Assembly: GCA_040389905.1 (NCBI GenBank)
Contig: JAZJZK010000002.1
Coordinates: 1 to 64,000 of the forward strand
Length of the DNA: 64,000 nucleotides
Direction: 5' to 3'
From: Gemmatimonadota bacterium
Lineage (GTDB): Bacteria > Gemmatimonadota > Gemmatimonadetes > Gemmatimonadales > Gemmatimonadaceae
Part shown: piece by piece, positions 39,834-53,948 of the stretch
How positions within the stretch are numbered: position 1 is the first letter of the stretch
Layout: each line of letters opens with the position of its first letter
Program-made: the position numbers and the translations under genes
Notes under the pieces: generated by a model
The model's database searches: none
Seen by the model: only the letters and a program-made list of their open reading frames with translations
Told to the model about the DNA's origin: nothing

Positions 39834-39902
39834 GCGAGCCTCCTCCTACACACAAGTAGCTAGCGGACCGTCACCGAAGTTCTGAGAGCAGCAGGGAGCA
39901 CC

Positions 39903-40066
39903 GGCACATTGAACGCGGATTGAGCGGATTGACCAGCGAAACAGTGATTGGTTCGGCGAGGCACGTCAGCAGCAGTTCACCGTGAAGTCTTCAAGCATGT
40001 GCTTCTCGTGTTTCACGCTTGATCATTGTTTTCTTTTCGATCCGCTCGATCCGCGTTCAATGTGCC
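39903..40066. repeat. Gene-less inverted repeat of the CGGAT 9-nt-period family
   Basis: GGCACATTGAACGCGGATTGAGCGGAT ... ATCCGCTCGATCCGCGTTCAATGTGCC. Confidence 0.85.
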
Positions 40067-40107
40067 CGCGCGCCGACCGACTCGGACCCGACGTTCCAAC
40101 CGACCTG

Positions 40108-45515: not shown

Positions 45516-46678
45516 AGATTCCCTTTGTGTACAACTACCGGAGCGTGATGCAGCGCCCCGTGTCCACGGCGCTGACGGCGCTGGGCATTGGGCTCGTCGT
45601 GGCGGTGTTCGTCGCGATGCTTGCGCTCGCGAATGGCTTCATCGCGGCGCTCGTGGAATCGGGTTCGCCCGACAACGTGTTGTTGCTGCGTCGCGGCGCG
45701 GACAGCGAGTTGTCGAGTGGTATTCCGCGTGAGGCGGTGAGCATCATTGCCTCCTCGCCCCACATTGCCATCGGTGCGGACAACAGGCCGCTCATCAGCC
45801 CGGAAACGTATCTGGTGCTGAATCTGCGGCGCGCCGGCGGAACCGAATTCGAGGTCGCCAATGTAGTCGCCCGTGGCGTGTCGGCGAAAGCATTCGAGGT
45901 GCGGCGCAACATCAAGATCATCGAGGGAAAGCAGATCAGCTCTGGGCAGAGTGAAATCTGTGTGGGTTCCAAGCTGGCGGGCCGCTTCGAAAACGTCGCG
46001 GTTGGAAACGTGTTGCGGTTCGGCAATCGCGATTGGAACGTCGTGTGCCGGTTCACTGCAGACGGCTCGAGCTTCGAGTCGGAGATCTGGGGTGAGAACG
46101 AGCAATTCCAGAACGTCTTCCGGGGGAACAGCTTCCAGTCGCTCACCTTCCGGCTCAAGGATCCGGCGGCGTTCGACGAGGTGAAGCGCGCCATGCTCGC
46201 CGACCAGCGGATTCAGGTGGACGCGCACCGCGAATCTGAATTCTACGCGAGCCAGTCGGAACTCCTTGGAAACATCCTTCGCTTCCTCGCCATCATGATC
46301 ACGAGCATCATGGCGGTGGGTGCGGTGTTCGGCGCGGTGAATACGATGTATGCCGCCGTCAGTTCACGCACGCCGGAGATTGCGGTGTTGCTCACCCTCG
46401 GTTTTCATCCGCGCAGCATCCTCACGAGCTTTCTCGCCGAGTCGGCGCTGATCGCGTTCGTGGGAGGTATCGTGGGGTGCCTGCTGGCGCTGCCGATCAA
46501 CGGTGTCGTGACCAGCACGACGAACTGGGCGAGCTTCAGCGAGATTGCATTCGCCTTTCGCGTGACGCCTCAGCTGTTGCTCGCGGGCATCGTCTTTTCG
46601 GTGGTCATGGGAGTGGTTGGCGGATTTTTCCCAGCGCGCCGGGCGTCGAAGATGCCGGTCATCCAGGCGCTGCGATAA
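45512..46678 (+). CDS. ABC transporter permease (FtsX/MacB-type)
   Basis: GTGA overlap; NTMYAAVSSRTPEIA; FFPARRA. Confidence 0.9.
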   Translation: MKIPFVYNYRSVMQRPVSTALTALGIGLVVAVFVAMLALANGFIAALVESGSPDNVLLLRRGADSELSSGIPREAVSIIASSPHIAIGADNRPLISPETYLVLNLRRAGGTEFEVANVVARGVSAKAFEVRRNIKIIEGKQISSGQSEICVGSKLAGRFENVAVGNVLRFGNRDWNVVCRFTADGSSFESEIWGENEQFQNVFRGNSFQSLTFRLKDPAAFDEVKRAMLADQRIQVDAHRESEFYASQSELLGNILRFLAIMITSIMAVGAVFGAVNTMYAAVSSRTPEIAVLLTLGFHPRSILTSFLAESALIAFVGGIVGCLLALPINGVVTSTTNWASFSEIAFAFRVTPQLLLAGIVFSVVMGVVGGFFPARRASKMPVIQALR

Positions 46679-46721
46679 ACGGCGCCACACAAGCCTCGCC
46701 ACGGATTGAGGAACGCATCAA

Positions 46722-46795
46722 ACGGATGCAACGGAAACAACCAGATCAAGCGACTCTATCGAGCAGCTTGATCCGGCTGTTTCTGTCGCATCCGT
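46722..46795. repeat. Degenerate CGGAT-family hairpin
   Basis: ACGGATGCAACGGAAACAACCAGATCAAGC / GCTTGATCCGGCTGTTTCTGTCGCATCCGT. Confidence 0.65.
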
Positions 46796-46894
46796 AGAAC
46801 CCTCTCCTAGACCCAATGCTGTTCAGTTACGGTGAGACCCCGCCGACGCGGCTTTGTTTTCGATTGTCGCTCGGCGAAGAGCAAAAGCAAAGCC

Positions 46895-47088
46895 TACCGC
46901 AGAGGACGCAGAAGCTCTGCCCTCCGTGCACTCATTTGTGCGCCGGACCGCAGAGGGGCGCAGAGGACGGCGGAACAGATTTAGCGGGAGTTCGGTATCC
47001 GGTCTCTCGCAGTCCCTCTGCGACCCTCTGCGGTCCGGCGCATCGGAGGTCGCTCAGGGTGCGCATGGCCTCCGCGTCCTCTGCGGTA
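46895..47088. repeat. Nested inverted repeat of the ACCGCAGAGG 9-nt-period family
   Basis: TACCGCAGAGGACGCAGA / TCCGCGTCCTCTGCGGTA outer arms; TGCGCCGGACCGCAGAGG / CCTCTGCGGTCCGGCGCA inner arms. Confidence 0.85.
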
Positions 47089-47167
47089 AAGCTTATCGCT
47101 TTGCTGCAGGTCCTAACTAAACTAACTGAACCGTATTGCTCCTAGACCTAGATCGACAACTCCAGGA

Positions 47168-47292
47168 TTGTCACCTCGACCGAGCGTGGACTCGAGCGCG
47201 TGCATCCCAAAGCCAAAGCACGTGCAGGCCCTTCGCGGAGTTTACCCTCGAGGAGCGCAAGCGACGAAGGGCTCAGGGCGACAAAACGAGCG
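47168..47292. repeat. Degenerate REP doublet
   Basis: TTGTCACCTCGA.. and GTGCAGGCCCTTCG..CGAAGGGCTCAGGGCGACAAAACGAGCG. Confidence 0.65.
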
Positions 47293-47332
47293 GGCGAGCA
47301 GCCGACATGCAGTCCTCTGCGTGCAATTCAGT

Positions 47333-49240
47333 TCACTGTTTGTGCGAGCCATTCTCCCGAATTCTGCCGATACCAACTCCGCTCGACGTGTAGAGCGCCA
47401 AGGCGATTCGCCCCGCAAGCAAATCATTCCTCTCGACCTCACCGAGTGTAAGCGTGCCACGCGCTGACACAGCACCGGGCCCAGCGAGCCGCCGTAGCAC
47501 TGGCCCCTTGTGCGCTGCACTATCCCGGTCGAGGCTCACGCCAAACAGCCGATCGGCCGGGACGCCCGCGACTCGCACGACGTAGTCGAGGGACCGGCGC
47601 GTCGCGTCGAAGGTAAGAACAGCCTGTGCGGTTGCCGACCCGACCTTCGCATTCGCCCGGAACTGCCGAGGCGCCGGCGCCTTGCCCGCTACGAGCGGAG
47701 GCGTTGTGCTCGGCGCGCGCCTTGGATGCACTGACTGTTCATAATCGTACGCGAGTGCGAGCAACCGGGCGTCAGCCAGCGGGCGGCCGAGCATCTCGAG
47801 TCCGATTGGAAGGCCATCCGGGGTAAATCCCGCCGGCATGCTCAAGGCAGGCAATCCCGTAACCGCGCTGAGTTGGCAATTTGCGCCGCGCTGGGGCTCG
47901 TTGATCAGCGCTGCCTTTCGGCGCATCGTCGGATACACGAGCGCGTCGTAGCGATTCGAGTCGAGGAAGGCGGCCACGAGATCGCGCGCAACCTTCCGTC
48001 GCGCAAGCGCGGCGCGATACGCGTCGCTATCTCGCGTGCCCATCGCGTCTCGCCTGCGGAAGGCGACGTCCAATGCGGTGTGATACAGCCCGCGCTCGAG
48101 GATCTCTGTCAGCGACTTCACCGGCGCGCTCGGAATGGTCGCAAGGAAATCGCGCAGATCGAACTTGAATTCATAGTCGATGACGCCGGCCGCGCCGATG
48201 AGGCTGTCCAGGCTGGGAATGACGACATCCGTCACGACGGCGCCGCGTGCCTTCATTCGTTCGAGCGCGGCACGAACGACCCGGGCGCCCTCCTGATCAT
48301 CCGCTTCGGTGCCAAAATGGGCCGTGAGCACGGCGAGACGCGCGCCGCGCAACGACGCCGAGTCGAGCGACGCAACGAAGCGAGGAAGTGGCTTGCCGTC
48401 GAGCAGTCGAGTTGCCGAGTCAGCCGGATCGGCTCCGATCGTCGCGTCGAGCGTGATCGCGAGGTCCGTCACGGTACGCGCGAGTGGTCCTCCCACATCC
48501 TGCGTGTGCGACAGCGGAACGATGCCACTGATACTCGACAAACCCTTGGTCGGTCGCAGCCCGAAGAGATTGTGGACCGCCGAGGGAATTCGAATCGATC
48601 CGCAGGTGTCGGAGCCCATGGCAACGGCGGCAAAGCTCGCGGCGATCGCGGCTCCGCTACCTCCGCTGGAGCCGCCCGGATTCCGGTCGGGATCGTACGG
48701 ATTGCAGGTCTGGCCGCCGAGGGAACTGATGCTCGTGATGCCGGCCGCGAGCTCATGCATGTTCGACTTCCCAAGAATGATGGCGCCGGCGTCGCGGAGT
48801 TTCTGAACCTGGAAGGCGTCGAAGCCGGTGCGCAAGCCGGCGAGGGCGATCGAGCCTGCCGACGTCGGCATGTCGGTGGTGGAATAGTTGTCCTTGAGGA
48901 TGATGGGAATGCCATGCAACGGACCACGAAACTTCCCGCTGCGACGCTCACCGTCGAGCCGCGATGCTTCGGAACGAGCGTTCGGATTGAGCGCGATCAT
49001 CGCATTCAGTGAGGGTCCGCGATGATCGTAGGCTGCGATGCGCGCGAGGTAAGCGTCGACGAGCGCGAGCGACGTGAGACGGCCGGCGTTCATCGCGGCC
49101 TGCAGGTCGGGAATGCTCGCTTCGTAGACGATGTCCGTCGCTCCGTTCGACGGTTGCCGCTGCCCGAGTGCGTTGTCAGGCGGAAGACAAAGTGCGAAGG
49201 CCACAAGAACGAACACTTGACGATGCAACGTTTTGGTCAT
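47333..49240 (-). CDS. Secreted amidase-signature family enzyme with a CHRD-like C-terminal domain
   Basis: LHGIPIILKDN, GKSNMHE, GGSSGGS, GSDTCGSIRIP; signal peptide. Confidence 0.9.
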   Translation of the reverse strand: MTKTLHRQVFVLVAFALCLPPDNALGQRQPSNGATDIVYEASIPDLQAAMNAGRLTSLALVDAYLARIAAYDHRGPSLNAMIALNPNARSEASRLDGERRSGKFRGPLHGIPIILKDNYSTTDMPTSAGSIALAGLRTGFDAFQVQKLRDAGAIILGKSNMHELAAGITSISSLGGQTCNPYDPDRNPGGSSGGSGAAIAASFAAVAMGSDTCGSIRIPSAVHNLFGLRPTKGLSSISGIVPLSHTQDVGGPLARTVTDLAITLDATIGADPADSATRLLDGKPLPRFVASLDSASLRGARLAVLTAHFGTEADDQEGARVVRAALERMKARGAVVTDVVIPSLDSLIGAAGVIDYEFKFDLRDFLATIPSAPVKSLTEILERGLYHTALDVAFRRRDAMGTRDSDAYRAALARRKVARDLVAAFLDSNRYDALVYPTMRRKAALINEPQRGANCQLSAVTGLPALSMPAGFTPDGLPIGLEMLGRPLADARLLALAYDYEQSVHPRRAPSTTPPLVAGKAPAPRQFRANAKVGSATAQAVLTFDATRRSLDYVVRVAGVPADRLFGVSLDRDSAAHKGPVLRRLAGPGAVSARGTLTLGEVERNDLLAGRIALALYTSSGVGIGRIRENGSHKQ

Positions 49241-49319
49241 CGAAGTACCGTGAGGTCGGAAACGCTTGCGTTTGCCTGCCGCGACCACCACAATAGTCCC
49301 TCCAGAACTTCGAGAGTCA

Positions 49320-49403
49320 ATGATGAAGAAGCCATTCGTTGCGCCCGTACTCACGAGCGAAGACCGACTCACCACGCTTGGTAGCTCGTCTGTTCCAACC
49401 TGA
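49320..49403 (+). CDS. 27-aa small ORF, RiPP-precursor-like (MMKKPFVAPVLTSEDRLTTLGSSSVPT)
   Basis: GAGAG just upstream; [FY]xxPxL leader-like motif; terminator directly downstream; below the ORF-track cutoff. Confidence 0.5.
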   Translation: MMKKPFVAPVLTSEDRLTTLGSSSVPT

Positions 49404-49421
49404 GTACCAACCGCGCACTTG

Positions 49422-49453
49422 AAATCGCCAGCCCCTTTTGGGCTGGCGTTTTT
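49422..49453 (+). terminator. Intrinsic terminator
   Basis: CGCCAGCCC-CTTTT-GGGCTGGCG followed by TTTTT. Confidence 0.8.
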
Positions 49454-49540
49454 CATTCAACGCCGAGCGAGCATAGCCGACGAACGTGAGGCACAATACG
49501 TTTGTCGCCGCAGCCAACTAAATGGAGTAGATCCGGATCG

Positions 49541-50818
49541 ATGACCGAGCTCGAGGCTGGTCCAGGAAATAGGGGCCACGCGCCCGCACTGGGGCGCTGG
49601 TGGCAACTGTTTCTCGGCGTGATCTGCATGTCGATGATCGCCAACCTGCAATACGGTTGGACGCTCTTCGTCAACCCGATCAACGACAAGTATCACTGGG
49701 GGCGGCCCGCTATTCAGGTGGCGTTCACGATCTTTGTGCTGGTCGAGACGTGGCTCGTTCCCGCGGAAGGCTACCTCGTCGACCGAGTCGGGCCCAAGAT
49801 GGTGGCGGTCGTATCGGGGATACTGGTCAGCGCCTCGTGGGTCATCTTTTCGTACGCCGATTCGCTGTTCCTGTTCTACGTCGGGGCGGCGGTCGGCGGA
49901 ATCGGTGCTGGTGGTGTGTATGGCGCGTGCGTTGGAAATGCGCTCAAGTGGTTTCCAGACCGGCGTGGGCTCGCAGCCGGACTCACCGCGATGGGCTTTG
50001 GCGCGGGGTCGGCGCTCACGGTCTTTCCCATTGCCGCGATGATCAAGACGGCCGGCTACGAGGCGACGTTCTTCAAGTTCGGCATCGCGCAGGGCGCCGT
50101 CGTGTTCGTGCTCGGGTGGTTCCTGCTCGCGCCGAATGCGGGCCTCAAGGTGCCAGGAAAGTCAGGTGCGGCGGCTGTGGCAGCAACGAAAGAGTACACG
50201 CCGACAGAGATGCTCCGGACGCCGGCATTCTGGCTCATGTATCTCATGTTCGTCCTCATGGCCACTGGTGGTTTGATTGCGACGGCGCAGCTCACGCCGA
50301 TCGCCAAGGACATGGGCATCGCCGAGTCACCGGTGTTCATCCTGGGGATCACGCTGCCGGCGCTGACGTTCGCGCTCTCGATTGACCGTGTGCTGAACGG
50401 CATCAGCCGACCGTTCTTTGGTTGGATGTCCGACCATATCGGACGCGAGAACACGATGTTTGTCGCATTCGGGCTCGAAGGGGTGGCCATTCTTCTTCTG
50501 AACCAGTTCGGCGGTTCGCCGCTTGCGTTCGTGCTGCTCACCGCGCTGGTCTTTTTCGGATATGGAGAGATCTACAGTCTCTTCCCAGCCACATGCGCCG
50601 ATACGTACGGTCGTCGCTTCGCGTCCGCGAACGCCGGGCTGCTCTACACCGCGAAGGGAACAGCGTCATTGCTGGTGCCGTTGAGCAGCCTGATGGCGGC
50701 CGCGATGGGCGGATGGCACGCGGTCTTCATGGCGGCCGCCGTGATGAACCTGCTGGCCGCGGCGCTGGCGCTCCTTGTGCTCAAACCGATGCGGACGCGC
50801 ATGACGAACGGGACATGA
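49541..50818 (+). CDS. oxlT: Oxalate/formate antiporter (MFS)
   Basis: ANLQYGWTLFV, GNALKWFPDRRGLAAG, RPFFGWMSD.IGRE, GEIYSLFP, LYTAKG. Confidence 0.92.
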   Translation: MTELEAGPGNRGHAPALGRWWQLFLGVICMSMIANLQYGWTLFVNPINDKYHWGRPAIQVAFTIFVLVETWLVPAEGYLVDRVGPKMVAVVSGILVSASWVIFSYADSLFLFYVGAAVGGIGAGGVYGACVGNALKWFPDRRGLAAGLTAMGFGAGSALTVFPIAAMIKTAGYEATFFKFGIAQGAVVFVLGWFLLAPNAGLKVPGKSGAAAVAATKEYTPTEMLRTPAFWLMYLMFVLMATGGLIATAQLTPIAKDMGIAESPVFILGITLPALTFALSIDRVLNGISRPFFGWMSDHIGRENTMFVAFGLEGVAILLLNQFGGSPLAFVLLTALVFFGYGEIYSLFPATCADTYGRRFASANAGLLYTAKGTASLLVPLSSLMAAAMGGWHAVFMAAAVMNLLAAALALLVLKPMRTRMTNGT

Positions 50819-51822
50819 AGATCGCCGTCGTGGGTGCCGGTGCGATCGGCGGGTACCTGGGAGGGTGGCTGTCCGCCGCTGGGGAGGATGTCACCTTCAT
50901 TGCGCGAGGGGCGAATCTCGACGCGATTCGGGCGAATGGCATGCGCGTCGTCGGTGAGGATGGCAGGGAGGTCGTCGCAACCGACACGCGCGCCTACGCG
51001 GACATGGGCGAGGCGGGCCCGCACGACGTCGTGTTGCTGACCGTCAAGGCGCATCAGGTGGCTGCAGTCGCCGAGGATCTTGGGCAGCTCTGTCATTCGG
51101 GGACGACGATCGTCACGATGCAGAACGGCATTCCATGGTGGTACTTCCACAAGCACGGTGGGCCATACGATGGTGCTGCTGTTCGCGCCGCTGATCCGGA
51201 TGGTGTCATCAGCCGTCATGTGGATTCAGAACGAATTATCGGGTCGGTTGTCTATCCCGCGGCAACGCTCGTCGCGCCCGGTGTTGTGCATGTTGTGGAG
51301 GGCCGGCGCTTTGCATTGGGTGAATTGAACGGGCAGTGGTCCGCGCGTGTGGAGGCGATTTCACAGCGTCTCGTGAAGGCGGGTTTCAAGGCGCCGGTCA
51401 TCGCGGACATTCGCAATGAGATCTGGCTCAAGGTGTGGGGCAACATGAGCTTCAACCCGATTAGCGCGCTCACGCATGCGACCCTGGTGGATTTGTTGCA
51501 GTTTCCGCTCACTCGGGAACTCAGCATTCAGATGATGAGGGAGGCGGAGGCGATTGCCGGGAAGCTCGGCATCACGTTCCGGGTTGGTATCGACAAGCGG
51601 ATCGCTGGCGCCGAGAAGGTGGGGGCGCACAAGACGTCGATGTTGCAGGATGTGGAGTCGGGGAAAGCGATCGAGCTCGAAGCGTTGGTTGGTGCGGTGG
51701 TCGAGCTTGGAGTTCTCACTGAGACACCGACACCGCATATCGATGCCGTGTATGCGTGTGCGTCGTTGCTGGCGAAGACACTCTCAGATTCTGGCGGACG
51801 TCTGATTATTGCTGGTCCTTGA
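50815..51822 (+). CDS. panE: Ketopantoate reductase-family protein (PanE2/oxalyl-CoA reductase candidate)
   Basis: VVGAGAIGG, QNGIPWWYF, IWLKVWGN..FNPISAL, HKTSMLQD. Confidence 0.88.
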   Translation: MKIAVVGAGAIGGYLGGWLSAAGEDVTFIARGANLDAIRANGMRVVGEDGREVVATDTRAYADMGEAGPHDVVLLTVKAHQVAAVAEDLGQLCHSGTTIVTMQNGIPWWYFHKHGGPYDGAAVRAADPDGVISRHVDSERIIGSVVYPAATLVAPGVVHVVEGRRFALGELNGQWSARVEAISQRLVKAGFKAPVIADIRNEIWLKVWGNMSFNPISALTHATLVDLLQFPLTRELSIQMMREAEAIAGKLGITFRVGIDKRIAGAEKVGAHKTSMLQDVESGKAIELEALVGAVVELGVLTETPTPHIDAVYACASLLAKTLSDSGGRLIIAGP

Positions 51823-52413
51823 CTGGCCACAAAGACGAAGGGCTCATGCGGATTCGACGGATTGAGCGGATTTCACGGGACGCTTCTCATTGGCGGTGCA
51901 GACAAGTCGGTAGAACTTTGCTTCGGGACCAAAGTGCAGGACCATGCCCACTTCAATATTGGTGGATTTGAGGTAGTTGTACGTTTGGCGAATAGAGATC
52001 TTGTTCATTTTGTACGTCGATTTGGTTTCGACGATGAGTTTGTCGTCGACGATGAGATCCATGCGTTGCGTGCCAAGTTCGTGACCCTTGTACATGACAC
52101 AAACCCTGTACTCTCGCACGACCTTATGACCGCGCTCCCGCAACTCGATTTCTAACGCCTTTACATACAGCCGCTCCAGAAATCCGAACCCGAGGGTGTT
52201 GTACACCTCGTAGAAGGCACCGATCACAGAGCGTGTGAGCCGCTCTTCGAGTAGTTGTCCTTTAGGCATGACCGAATCTTGCGAATCAATGCCTGCCATG
52301 CGTCATCAAAAAACAACGGCCGCGGTGCAAATCCACGCAACGAAACTCGGAACCATCCGCATAATCCGCTAAATCCGCAGAATCCGCATAGAACCCTTCG
52401 TCTTTGTAGCCAG
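51823..52413 (-). mobile_element. Putative mobile element: GxxExxY gene between ~55 bp terminal inverted repeats
   Basis: Left end CTGGCCACAAAGACGAAGGGCTCATGCGGATT..; right end reverse complement CTGGCTACAAAGACGAAGGGTTCTATGCGGATT.. (19 of first 20 nt match); lies antisense within an operon. Confidence 0.75.
51844..52269 (-). CDS. GxxExxY protein, PD-(D/E)XK nuclease superfamily
   Basis: LGFGFLERLY, RMDLIVDDKLIVETKS, QTYNYLK, LHFG; start 52269 or 52299. Confidence 0.93.
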   Translation of the reverse strand: MPKGQLLEERLTRSVIGAFYEVYNTLGFGFLERLYVKALEIELRERGHKVVREYRVCVMYKGHELGTQRMDLIVDDKLIVETKSTYKMNKISIRQTYNYLKSTNIEVGMVLHFGPEAKFYRLVCTANEKRPVKSAQSVESA

Positions 52414-52415
52414 CG

Positions 52416-53948
52416 ATGAGCCATTCACCCCAAACGATCACAGATCTCTTGAAGGCAGGCGCAGATGACGCGCCCGCCCTCAGCACCCCTGGCGGAACGC
52501 CACTTTCGTACAACGCGCTCCGCCAACTCGTAGCCGACACTGGCAAGGCGCTCAACGAAAAGGCCATCGGCGCCGGCGACCGTGTCGCGATCGTCCTCGA
52601 CAACGGCCCGGAAATGGCCGCCGCGTTCCTCTGTGTCGGCGCCGCGGCAACAGCGGCCCCGCTCAATCCGAACTACCGCGCCGACGAATACGAGTTCTAC
52701 CTCACCGATCTGCGTGCAAAGTTGCTCATCGTCGGAGCAGGAAAAGAATCGCCCTCGATCGGCGTGGCAGAAAAACTCGGCGTTCCCATCGCCCGCCTCA
52801 CGCCCCATCCAGACAAGGGCGCGGGTAGTTTCACAATCGACTTCGGTGATTTCTCGCCGACAGAAGGCGCTGGTGCAAGTCGAGAAGTCACCCCCGACGA
52901 CACAGCACTCGTGCTGCACACGTCCGGCACGACCTCCCGCCCGAAAATCGTTCCGCTCGCCCAGAAGAACATCTGTGCCTCGGCGCGCAATATCCGCCAG
53001 TCACTCGCGCTCACGGCGGACGATCGCGGCATGGTCATCATGCCACTCTTTCACATTCACGGACTCATCGCCGCGTTGCTCGCGCCGCTTTCCGCAGGCG
53101 GTGAGGTGTCATGTACGACAGGGTTCAACGCACTGAAGTTCTTCACCTGGCTCGATGAAGTGAAGCCGACGTGGTACTCCGGTGTGCCCACGATGCATCA
53201 GGCGATCCTCCTTCGCGCGCCCAACAACGCCGACATCATCAAGTCACACCGACTGCGCTTCATCCGTTCGTCGTCGTCCTCATTGCCGACACGAGTGATC
53301 ACGGAAGTCGAAGCGCTATACGGTGTCCCGATTATCGAAGCGTACGGGATGACCGAGGCGGCACATCAAATGGCCACGAATCCGCTTCCACCGAAAGTTC
53401 GCAAGCCGGGTAGCGTGGGCCCATCCGGCGGGCCGGAAATCCGCATCGCCGACGAGACCGGCGCCACGGTGCCTGCCGGCGCAACCGGCGAGATCGTCAT
53501 CCGCGGACCCAACGTCATGACGGAGTACGAGAACAATCCGAAGGCCAACGCGGAAGCGTTCTACGGCGATTGGTTCCGCACCGGTGATCAGGGCGTGATG
53601 GACGAGGACGGTTACGTCAGCATCACCGGGCGCCTCAAGGAGATCATCAACCGCGGCGGCGAGAAGATCTCGCCACGCGAGGTGGACGAGATCATCATGG
53701 AGCATCCCGGCGTCCACCAATGCGTTACCTTCGGCATGCCGCACGACATGCTCGGCGAAGACGTCGCGGCGGCCGTCGTGCTCAAGCAAGGCGCTGACGT
53801 CACCGACAAGGAACTCCGTCAGTTCGCCGCCGTTCGTCTCGCGGACTTCAAGGTTCCGCGAAAGATCCTCATCCTCACGGAGATTCCGGTGGGTGCCACC
53901 GGAAAGCTCCAGCGCATTGGCCTCGCACAGAAACTGGGACTCGGATGA
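52416..53948 (+). CDS. Acyl-CoA synthetase, oxalate-CoA ligase-like
   Basis: LHTSGTTSRPK, PLFHIHG, VPTMHQ, EAYGMTEAAHQM, KEIINRGGEKISP, TGKLQR. Confidence 0.9.
   Translation: MSHSPQTITDLLKAGADDAPALSTPGGTPLSYNALRQLVADTGKALNEKAIGAGDRVAIVLDNGPEMAAAFLCVGAAATAAPLNPNYRADEYEFYLTDLRAKLLIVGAGKESPSIGVAEKLGVPIARLTPHPDKGAGSFTIDFGDFSPTEGAGASREVTPDDTALVLHTSGTTSRPKIVPLAQKNICASARNIRQSLALTADDRGMVIMPLFHIHGLIAALLAPLSAGGEVSCTTGFNALKFFTWLDEVKPTWYSGVPTMHQAILLRAPNNADIIKSHRLRFIRSSSSSLPTRVITEVEALYGVPIIEAYGMTEAAHQMATNPLPPKVRKPGSVGPSGGPEIRIADETGATVPAGATGEIVIRGPNVMTEYENNPKANAEAFYGDWFRTGDQGVMDEDGYVSITGRLKEIINRGGEKISPREVDEIIMEHPGVHQCVTFGMPHDMLGEDVAAAVVLKQGADVTDKELRQFAAVRLADFKVPRKILILTEIPVGATGKLQRIGLAQKLGLG

What the first reader, a model, noticed from the sequence alone, without database searches (positions are those of the whole stretch)
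51823..52413. GxxExxY nuclease gene packaged as an inverted-repeat-bounded element: candidate autonomous element of a non-transposase mobile family
Seen: a 591-bp unit begins immediately after the panE-like TGA and ends 2 bp before the next ATG. Its ends are ~55-bp inverted repeats: a 20-bp terminus (19/20 match) plus about four CGGATT units at 9-nt spacing. Its only gene is an antisense, visibly AT-richer GxxExxY ORF with an intact D..ExK motif, whose C-terminus (PVKSAQSVESA) is encoded by the repeat itself. There is no DDE or HUH transposase and no clear target-site duplication. Known: GxxExxY proteins are PD-(D/E)XK-fold proteins of unassigned function; in RAYT/REPIN systems a nuclease gene flanked by palindromes maintains dispersed gene-less copies. 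Inference: a REPIN/RAYT-like system driven by a restriction-like nuclease rather than a Y1 transposase.
Basis: partly seen in the sequence, partly recalled or inferred. Interest (0 to 1): 0.85.

Follow-up and report, generated by a model that had tools for sequence, protein, structure and literature searches.

The report
Repeat-armed GxxExxY nuclease element
A small nuclease gene of unknown function sits between mirrored arrays of a short DNA motif, and gene-less copies of such arms are scattered through the genome, which suggests that this nuclease, not a transposase, helps spread a family of bacterial repeats.

Summary
The 591-bp unit has inverted arms (20-bp cap plus CGGATT units every 9 nt) around an AT-rich GxxExxY gene. 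It is an insertion: 0 of 10 orthologous panE-ligase junctions carry it. All three GxxExxY genes of this genome have arms, each of its own subtype with gene-less intergenic copies; no RAYT or Y1 transposase was found, and no target-site duplication (0 of 32). Inverted arms flank 63 of 84 genus loci, 20 of 28 other phylum loci and 61 of 77 loci from many phyla (controls 5 of 55, 4 of 74). Arm motif follows protein clade, the catalytic residues are invariant, and repeat-rich genomes mostly carry the gene (22 of 41 against 7 of 79; 8 of 11 against 1 of 24 in a second genus). Best reading (0.6): a RecB/Cas4-like nuclease nicks its own hairpin arms and host repair spreads them, like REPIN-RAYT without a transposase. 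Against: one abundant arm type here has no matching gene in the assembly, and unrelated small genes show the same design. No cleavage or movement is shown. I found no paper; this scan noted the pattern before on other DNA (109 findings).

The parts
51823..52413 (.). Whole unit: inverted arms enclosing one GxxExxY gene; the true ends may lie up to 3 bp further out
   Evidence: absent at 10 of 10 orthologous junctions
51823..51886 (+). Left arm (3' side of the gene): 20-bp cap, CGGATT units at 51849, 51858, 51867, decayed unit at 51876; contains the gene's stop codon
   Evidence: likeness to gene-less copies runs to about 51886
52346..52413 (-). Right arm (5' side of the gene): 20-bp cap and four units at 9-nt spacing (52381, 52372, 52363, 52354)
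51844..52299 (-). GxxExxY / PF13366 PD-(D/E)XK nuclease gene (151 aa; 141 aa if it starts at 52269); E42, D81, E91, K93 and QxxxY (105-109) intact
50815..51822 (+). Host 2-dehydropantoate 2-reductase-like (panE) gene, left neighbour
52416..53948 (+). Host acyl-CoA ligase gene, right neighbour; overlaps or closely follows panE in relatives
39900..40069 (.). Gene-less hairpin of arm subtype C (the subtype of the GxxExxY gene on contig C15)
46706..46796 (.). Gene-less hairpin of arm subtype B (the subtype of the GxxExxY gene on contig C14)
46895..47085 (.). Nested gene-less hairpin of the CGCAGAG arm type, which flanks GxxExxY genes of another clade in relatives

Best explanation
The unit is the gene-carrying form of a two-part repeat system that works like REPIN-RAYT but uses a hydrolytic PD-(D/E)XK nuclease. 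SHOWN (comparative): GxxExxY genes sit between inverted arrays of short units; the same arms occur as many gene-less intergenic hairpins; arm motif follows the protein clade; the active site is under purifying selection; units appear at new sites without target duplication. INFERRED: (1) the protein binds the repeated units as iteron-like sites on the hairpin or cruciform that the arms form; (2) it acts as a dimer that needs one active site, i.e. it nicks near the outer end of the stem; (3) since this fold has no strand-transfer residue (own knowledge), joining is left to host repair or template switching at a break or fork, which copies the hairpin to a new place without duplication; (4) this is slow: gene-less hairpins spread in trans, and the gene-carrying unit moves rarely and can persist vertically; (5) the host removes insertions in genes and tolerates those between convergent genes.
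For: 3 of 3 GxxExxY genes in the genome have arms; strict arm counts A 19, B 59, C 86 against 0 in three shuffles; arms match the unit of their own subtype in 15 of 17, 58 of 58 and 84 of 84 cases (partly circular, the patterns came from these units). Arm score >=30 in 63 of 84 genus loci, 20 of 28 other phylum loci (shifted control 5 of 55) and 61 of 77 loci of many phyla (outer control 4 of 74). A 31-row clade (support 100/99) carries only C(A/G)C(A/G)GAG arms where labelled (19 rows; 12 unlabelled); Mantel rho 0.34, 0 of 999 permutations, n = 88. D, E, K invariant in 117 of 117, QxxxY Q 115 and Y 109; dN/dS <= 0.20 in 25 of 26 computable pairs. Genomes with >=15 triple-unit arrays: 22 of 41 with the gene, 7 of 79 without; in the genus of G304, 8 of 11 against 1 of 24; at one locus there the 8 filled genomes have 18-156 arrays and the 8 empty ones 1-9. 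No duplication of 3 bp or more in 0 of 32 sharp-ended copies. Ends 90% identical, interiors 43%. 162 of 162 gene-less pairs outside called genes, enriched between convergent genes. Best Foldseek match Cas4 SSO0001, E 4.5e-4; QxxxY is called characteristic of RecB-family nucleases in the abstract of PMC2475608. In 9 of 10 natural tandem-fused double proteins one domain is intact and one has lost the motifs.
Against: No binding, cleavage or movement was observed; no joint skipping the unit in three runs held as contigs. The genome holds 256 loose-pattern GAG-type arms (93 pairs) but no GAG-clade GxxExxY gene in an 84.6% complete assembly. G017 (96%) and G146 (98%) have such arrays without a detectable gene. 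19 of 41 gene-carrying genomes have under 15 arrays of the tested pattern (the pattern misses some arm types). 21 of 84 genus loci lack arms, among them three of the closest relatives of this protein (L108, L117, L121). In the genus of G304 single-gene genomes carry two or three arm types, so pairing is not one to one. A GIY-YIG gene and 2 of 5 four-helix-bundle genes of this genome are also enclosed by inverted repeats with dispersed copies, so enclosure alone does not prove that the gene product is the mover. Kin are not independent, so the P values overstate.
Confidence: 0.6

Rival explanations
1. Cargo model: the hairpins are moved by a host function or an unidentified enzyme, and GxxExxY, like GIY-YIG and four-helix-bundle genes, is a small passenger that became enclosed by arms and travels with them.
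For: The same design around three unrelated small gene families in one genome; abundant arms without a matching gene; several arm types per gene in one genus; the assembly is incomplete and DDE transposases were not searched genome-wide.
Against: Each gene family has its own repeat type, and within GxxExxY the motif follows the protein clade across phyla. Among true arm pairs longer than 300 bp only GxxExxY genes were found as cargo. Repeat load follows gene presence in two phyla. No target duplication.
Confidence: 0.15
2. Maintenance model: the nuclease is a domesticated enzyme that resolves or trims the cruciforms or RNA hairpins formed by the repeats, making them tolerable or useful (for example as terminators or mRNA stabilisers); the repeats spread by recombination or conversion, not through the enzyme.
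For: One lineage sits at one locus in 18 genomes at 42-89% identity; purifying selection; rare on plasmids (8 of 72,556 records) and phages (2 of 50,697); hairpins favour convergent gene pairs; junction resolvases and tRNA endonucleases are among weaker fold matches.
Against: 122 loci fall into 79 neighbourhoods and 14 of 29 close protein pairs share no neighbour (short flanks may hide some); the window's site is unique and empty in relatives; sharp, conserved outer ends without duplication point to a defined cut.
Confidence: 0.18
3. Chance or ordinary MITE insertions on either side of an unrelated AT-rich orphan gene.
For: The genome has hundreds of such arms, all intergenic, and the same junction holds a different gene-less hairpin in G221.
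Against: 3 of 3 genes here and 144 of 189 loci elsewhere have matched inverted arms next to the gene, against 9 of 129 control windows; the arm overlaps the reading frame.
Confidence: 0.03

Closest known systems
REPIN-RAYT systems (bioRxiv 10.1101/2021.07.10.451892 and PMC3116915, passages read)
   Same: About 100-200-bp extragenic hairpins with conserved inverted ends and variable spacers; a low-copy gene flanked by its own repeat type; several gene-repeat pairs per genome; long vertical persistence of some genes; rare on plasmids; repeats mostly where the gene is.
   Different: The enzyme is PD-(D/E)XK, not HUH/Y1; arms are arrays of 5-7-nt units at 8-10-nt spacing rather than single short palindromes; the gene lies inside one unit with arms touching the reading frame; the gene-carrying unit has changed site often (79 neighbourhoods), whereas RAYTs are described as staying in one extragenic space; archaeal records occur although those with arms scored below the cut-off.
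Insertion sequences with terminal inverted repeats and their MITEs (own knowledge; PMC3184786 seen as listing only)
   Same: Gene between inverted ends, with shorter gene-less derivatives.
   Different: No DDE transposase in the unit, no target-site duplication (0 of 32), no near-identical copies of the gene-carrying form, only about 0.5-0.6 kb.
Homing endonuclease elements, including PD-(D/E)XK ones and the ShiLan HNH insertion (PMC11855218, abstract read)
   Same: A small nuclease that would spread its own DNA by cutting and host repair.
   Different: No intron or intein; many unrelated sites instead of one homing site; terminal arms and hundreds of gene-less copies.
RecB-family / Cas4 nucleases (PDB 4ic1; QxxxY per abstract of PMC2475608)
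   Same: Fold and motifs E, D, ExK, QxxxY.
   Different: Only about 130 residues; Z-scores (7.8-8.6) are no higher than for other restriction-like folds, so the subfamily is not settled; no solved sequence homolog. PF13366 is listed as function 'Unknown' in PMC3424549 (passage read).

Membership tests
GxxExxY family (TIGR04256 / PF13366) | Score above the curated cut-off | tested here: met
   112 bits against 35; 117 against 22
PD-(D/E)XK nucleases, RecB-like | Fold and E / D / ExK / QxxxY motifs | tested here: met
PD-(D/E)XK nucleases, RecB-like | Nuclease activity and substrate | not testable with these tools
   needs biochemistry
REPIN-RAYT | Associated gene is an HUH/Y1 tyrosine transposase | tested here: not met
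   The enclosed gene is PF13366; PF01797 and NF047646 not found in the 84.6% complete genome
REPIN-RAYT | Extragenic hairpin doublets with conserved ends and variable spacer, many copies | tested here: met
REPIN-RAYT | Gene flanked by its own repeat type | tested here: met
   3 of 3 in this genome; exceptions elsewhere
REPIN-RAYT | Gene fixed at one locus and vertically inherited | tested here: inconclusive
   True of one lineage (18 genomes), not of the window's copy; 79 neighbourhoods for 122 loci; no host tree was built
IS / MITE with DDE transposase | DDE transposase in the autonomous element | tested here: not met
   Only PF13366 in the unit; the rest of the genome was not searched for DDE families
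IS / MITE with DDE transposase | Target-site duplication | tested here: not met
   0 of 32 subtype-C copies for 3-10 bp; 2-bp matches at the shuffled level. At the window's own unit a 3-bp reading cannot be excluded
Homing endonuclease element | Residence in an intron or intein, one conserved target site | tested here: not met
   Intergenic, many sites; no Rfam family above its gathering score in 46500-52600
Mobile element (any) | Observed excision or insertion | tested here: inconclusive
   Filled and empty sites exist; no excision joint in contigs, which drop rare variants

The most novel reading that the evidence does not exclude
A class of prokaryotic mobile repeats that need no transposase: a roughly 130-residue nickase binds tandem units on its own hairpin arms, and host repair copies the hairpins around the genome. 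GxxExxY units would be one branch, spread over many phyla and diversifying arm motif together with protein; the GIY-YIG and four-helix-bundle genes enclosed by their own repeats in the same genome would be parallel branches. It would assign a function to PF13366 and explain a large set of unannotated intergenic repeats.
Probability: 0.5. Interest if true: 0.9.

Novelty: categorically new. Interest (0 to 1): 0.78.

Why it matters
GxxExxY is a very large family (10,233 clusters at 50% identity matched at E <= 0.001) listed as function unknown. If it spreads its arms, it is a second, chemically unrelated solution to the REPIN-RAYT way of life, and a case of DNA mobility without a strand-transfer enzyme. 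It gives a direct, small-scale test: a 130-residue protein and a 60-nt substrate, with natural mismatched controls from other clades. It also accounts for hundreds of intergenic hairpins per genome in this lineage. A compact sequence- and structure-specific nickase family with diverse specificities could be of practical use.

Tried and rejected
Viral contigs: no relative found with the single protein. Rfam: only microRNA-type hairpin scores far below gathering, none on the unit. Promoter scan: nothing above chance. Solved structures by sequence: none. Reads: only the probable source run holds the stretch; no joint skips the whole unit; the joint 51872>52354 with 24 other letters is best read as a gene-less paralog, not an excision. 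A polarity test on subtype-C pairs was inconclusive. Exact ends at the window's site cannot be fixed: relatives are about 70-77% identical and three readings fit (unit plus the panE stop, unit plus 3 bp on both sides, or a 3-bp duplication). G323 joins the two flanks of the G304 locus without duplicated bases, but may be a later deletion. Of the 7 gene-negative, repeat-rich genomes, the listed matches of G101, G168, G092 and G112 and most of G149 are 8-nt tandem runs of another kind; G146 has true arms; G141's were not displayed. Paper searches that found no description of the link: 'GxxExxY' (3 papers, 2 listed; one passage read; the other seen as listing only), PF13366/PDDEXK_3/TIGR04256 (2), REPIN/RAYT with restriction-like terms. 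The library lacks most subscription journals, and no supplements were read, so a mention there is possible. The genus of G305 was searched but its loci were not analysed.

Full report
Observation. The unit is as described: 591 bp between the panE-like stop (51822) and the acyl-CoA ligase start (52416), with a 19-of-20 cap and CGGATT units every 9 nt on both sides. The arm score is 70 against a 99th percentile of 29 for 500 random positions. The enclosed minus-strand ORF is a GxxExxY / PF13366 protein above both cut-offs, 51% GC against 61-62% in its neighbours. A single unitig of the probable source run spans it without a difference. The host is probably a gemmatimonad: the best named match is a Gemmatirosa replicon at 60%; this is inference.

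It is an insertion. Ten relatives hold both panE and the ligase in one locus (G007, G040; eight of the 11 panE hits among 150 family genomes; the other three had no ligase in the locus). None has GxxExxY there; nine have at most 58 nt to the ligase match, three with overlapping stop and start, and G221 has a different gene-less hairpin of about 200 bp at the same junction. The exact ends cannot be fixed at this divergence.

The genome. It has three GxxExxY genes, 45-54% identical to the window's protein for the other two, and each is enclosed by inverted arms of its own subtype. Strict patterns give 19, 59 and 86 arms against none in three shuffled genomes. Leaving out the units themselves, 15 of 17, 58 of 58 and 84 of 84 arms align best to the unit of their subtype; the patterns were drawn from these units, so this is partly circular. 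With looser patterns there are 69 CGGAT-type and 93 GAG-type gene-less pairs under 300 bp; none lies in a gene by my rough gene calls (87% coding), and 64 of the 156 with two neighbours lie between convergent genes against 341 of 2,078 gaps. Subtype C has sharp ends, ends 90% and interiors 43% identical, and only 2 of 496 interior pairs above 90%: an old population selected on its ends. No duplication of 3-10 bp was found in 32 usable copies of 33. Neither PF01797 nor the RAYT model NF047646 matched; the assembly is 84.6% complete.

Relatives. PF13366 matched 47 of 54 other genomes of the genus. I fetched 90 of those matches, the better-scoring and mostly full-length ones; 84 had enough flank and 63 had an arm score of 30 or more. 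Outside the genus 20 of 28 did (29 loci, best match per genome, one duplicate dropped); windows shifted off the gene gave 5 of 55. With a GAG-clade query the best 80 of 564 confirmed loci in the species collection came from Chloroflexota, Planctomycetota, Acidobacteriota, proteobacteria, Bacteroidota and others; 61 of 77 usable had arms against 4 of 74 outer controls, and nearly all of the GAG-like type. In the genus tree a 31-row clade with support 100/99 holds all 19 rows labelled C(A/G)C(A/G)GAG and no CGGAT row; 34 of 84 rows were unlabelled by my crude rule and many forks are unresolved. Arm-word similarity rises with protein identity (rho 0.34, 0 of 999 permutations). One locus each from the unpublished G012 (L036) and G115 (L138) is in these counts, and both genomes are in the genome tallies; removing them would change each count by one.

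Gene and repeat load. In 120 phylum genomes at least 90% complete, 22 of 41 with TIGR04256 and 7 of 79 without had 15 or more triple-unit arrays (medians 16 and 2); the trend holds within the two largest families (9 of 18 against 1 of 10; 10 of 18 against 6 of 37). In an unrelated genus (35 genomes around the record titled Thioalkalivibrio sp. ALJ16) 8 of 11 with the gene and 1 of 24 without had 15 or more CACRGAG arrays. There one locus is filled in 8 genomes and empty in 8; three protein variants about 67% identical occupy it, each with different adjacent arms, and gene-carrying genomes hold two or three arm types, sometimes nested. Kin are not independent.

Mobile or fixed. The 122 loci fall into 79 neighbourhoods; 15 of 29 pairs with 75% or more identity share a neighbour; the window's site is unique; and the lineage of the C14 gene sits at one locus in 18 genomes at 42-89% identity. 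Relatives are rare on plasmids (8 records) and phages (2 records of one virus) at single-query sensitivity. So the gene-carrying unit moves now and then and can also persist, between an IS and a RAYT as described in the passages read.

The protein. D, E and K of the catalytic motifs are invariant in 117 of 117 intact loci (5 of 122 dropped for stops or short flanks), the GxxE glutamate in 116, QxxxY in 115 and 109; dN/dS is at most 0.20 in 25 of 26 computable pairs, many near saturation, and the window's gene has no close partner among them. The model is confident (pLDDT 94.6). Foldseek ranks Cas4 SSO0001 first (E 4.5e-4); the wide search gives restriction-like folds at Z 7-8.6 without a clear winner. 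Ten tandem-fused double proteins among the best 150 hits were aligned; nine keep one intact and one degenerate domain, one has both altered, which suggests a dimer needing a single active site. This was not tested by folding.

Against. The GAG arm type is as abundant here as all CGGAT types together and matches the flanks of relatives' GxxExxY genes, yet no such gene is in the assembly. G017 and G146 have arms and no detectable gene. A quarter of loci have no arms, including three near relatives of this protein. A GIY-YIG gene and 2 of 5 four-helix-bundle genes here are likewise enclosed by inverted repeats with dispersed copies. No excision joint was seen.

Mechanism and verdict. I give 0.6 to: the nuclease recognises the repeated units on its own hairpin arms, nicks at the stem end, and host repair copies the hairpin elsewhere without duplication; 0.18 to a domesticated maintenance enzyme; 0.15 to passive cargo. 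The association itself is close to certain; the chemistry is inferred. It works like REPIN-RAYT but fails its defining enzyme test, and fails those of DDE elements and homing endonucleases. Ten paper searches found no description of the link; I read passages of four papers, one abstract with outline and otherwise listings. Earlier notes of this scan report the same design in 109 findings on other DNA; I had reached the reading before opening them and count them as no support. New here are the three gene-subtype pairs in one genome, the duplication test, the gene-load tests in two phyla, the mix of fixed and mobile lineages and the half-dead tandem fusions.

Noticed in passing
G000:C13:67419-67631 (L173): A small GIY-YIG gene is enclosed by inverted copies of one of the genome's most abundant repeats (a 14-mer of it occurs 144 times): the same gene-in-arms design with an unrelated nuclease.
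   Followed up: partly
G000:C6:201658-201972 and C9:40401-40712 (L168, L169): Two of five four-helix-bundle (PF05635) genes are enclosed by inverted repeats with dispersed copies; two others have a repeat on one side.
   Followed up: partly
window 46700-47290: Three repeat families lie side by side between two convergent genes: a subtype-B hairpin, a nested GAG-type hairpin and a copy of a third abundant repeat.
   Followed up: partly
window 47263-47275 and 51834-51846: A 13-bp word of the third repeat family is identical to part of the cap of the unit's left arm; the cap may derive from that family. Unexplained.
   Followed up: no
G000:C6:48771-48832, C31:18107-18167, C52:37432-37493, C55:22822-22883, C64:8289-8350, C5:77408-77468 and 78234-78297: Seven subtype-B arm pairs lie back to back (outer ends facing) with a constant span of 61-64 bp, like joined ends or clustered insertions.
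   Followed up: no
L156 (G221), panE-ligase junction: A different gene-less GAG-type hairpin occupies the same junction; L157 and L159 have short 7-nt tandem repeats at the end of panE.
   Followed up: partly
P0003, P0008, P0025, P0035, P0076, P0094, P0097, P0103, P0106, P0123: Tandem-fused double GxxExxY proteins, nine with one intact and one degenerate domain; their genomic context was not seen.
   Followed up: partly
G315 (e.g. C3:1655-1890): Hairpins with CACGAAG arms outside and CACAGAG arms inside, suggesting that new arms are added around old elements.
   Followed up: no
L261 (Sphingomonas record NZ_CP155749.1): An armed GxxExxY gene sits between fabD and fabG; close relatives could give an exact empty site.
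   Followed up: no
G101, G168, G092, G112: Long 8-nt tandem runs with a related core occur in genomes without a TIGR04256 match; partner gene unknown.
   Followed up: no
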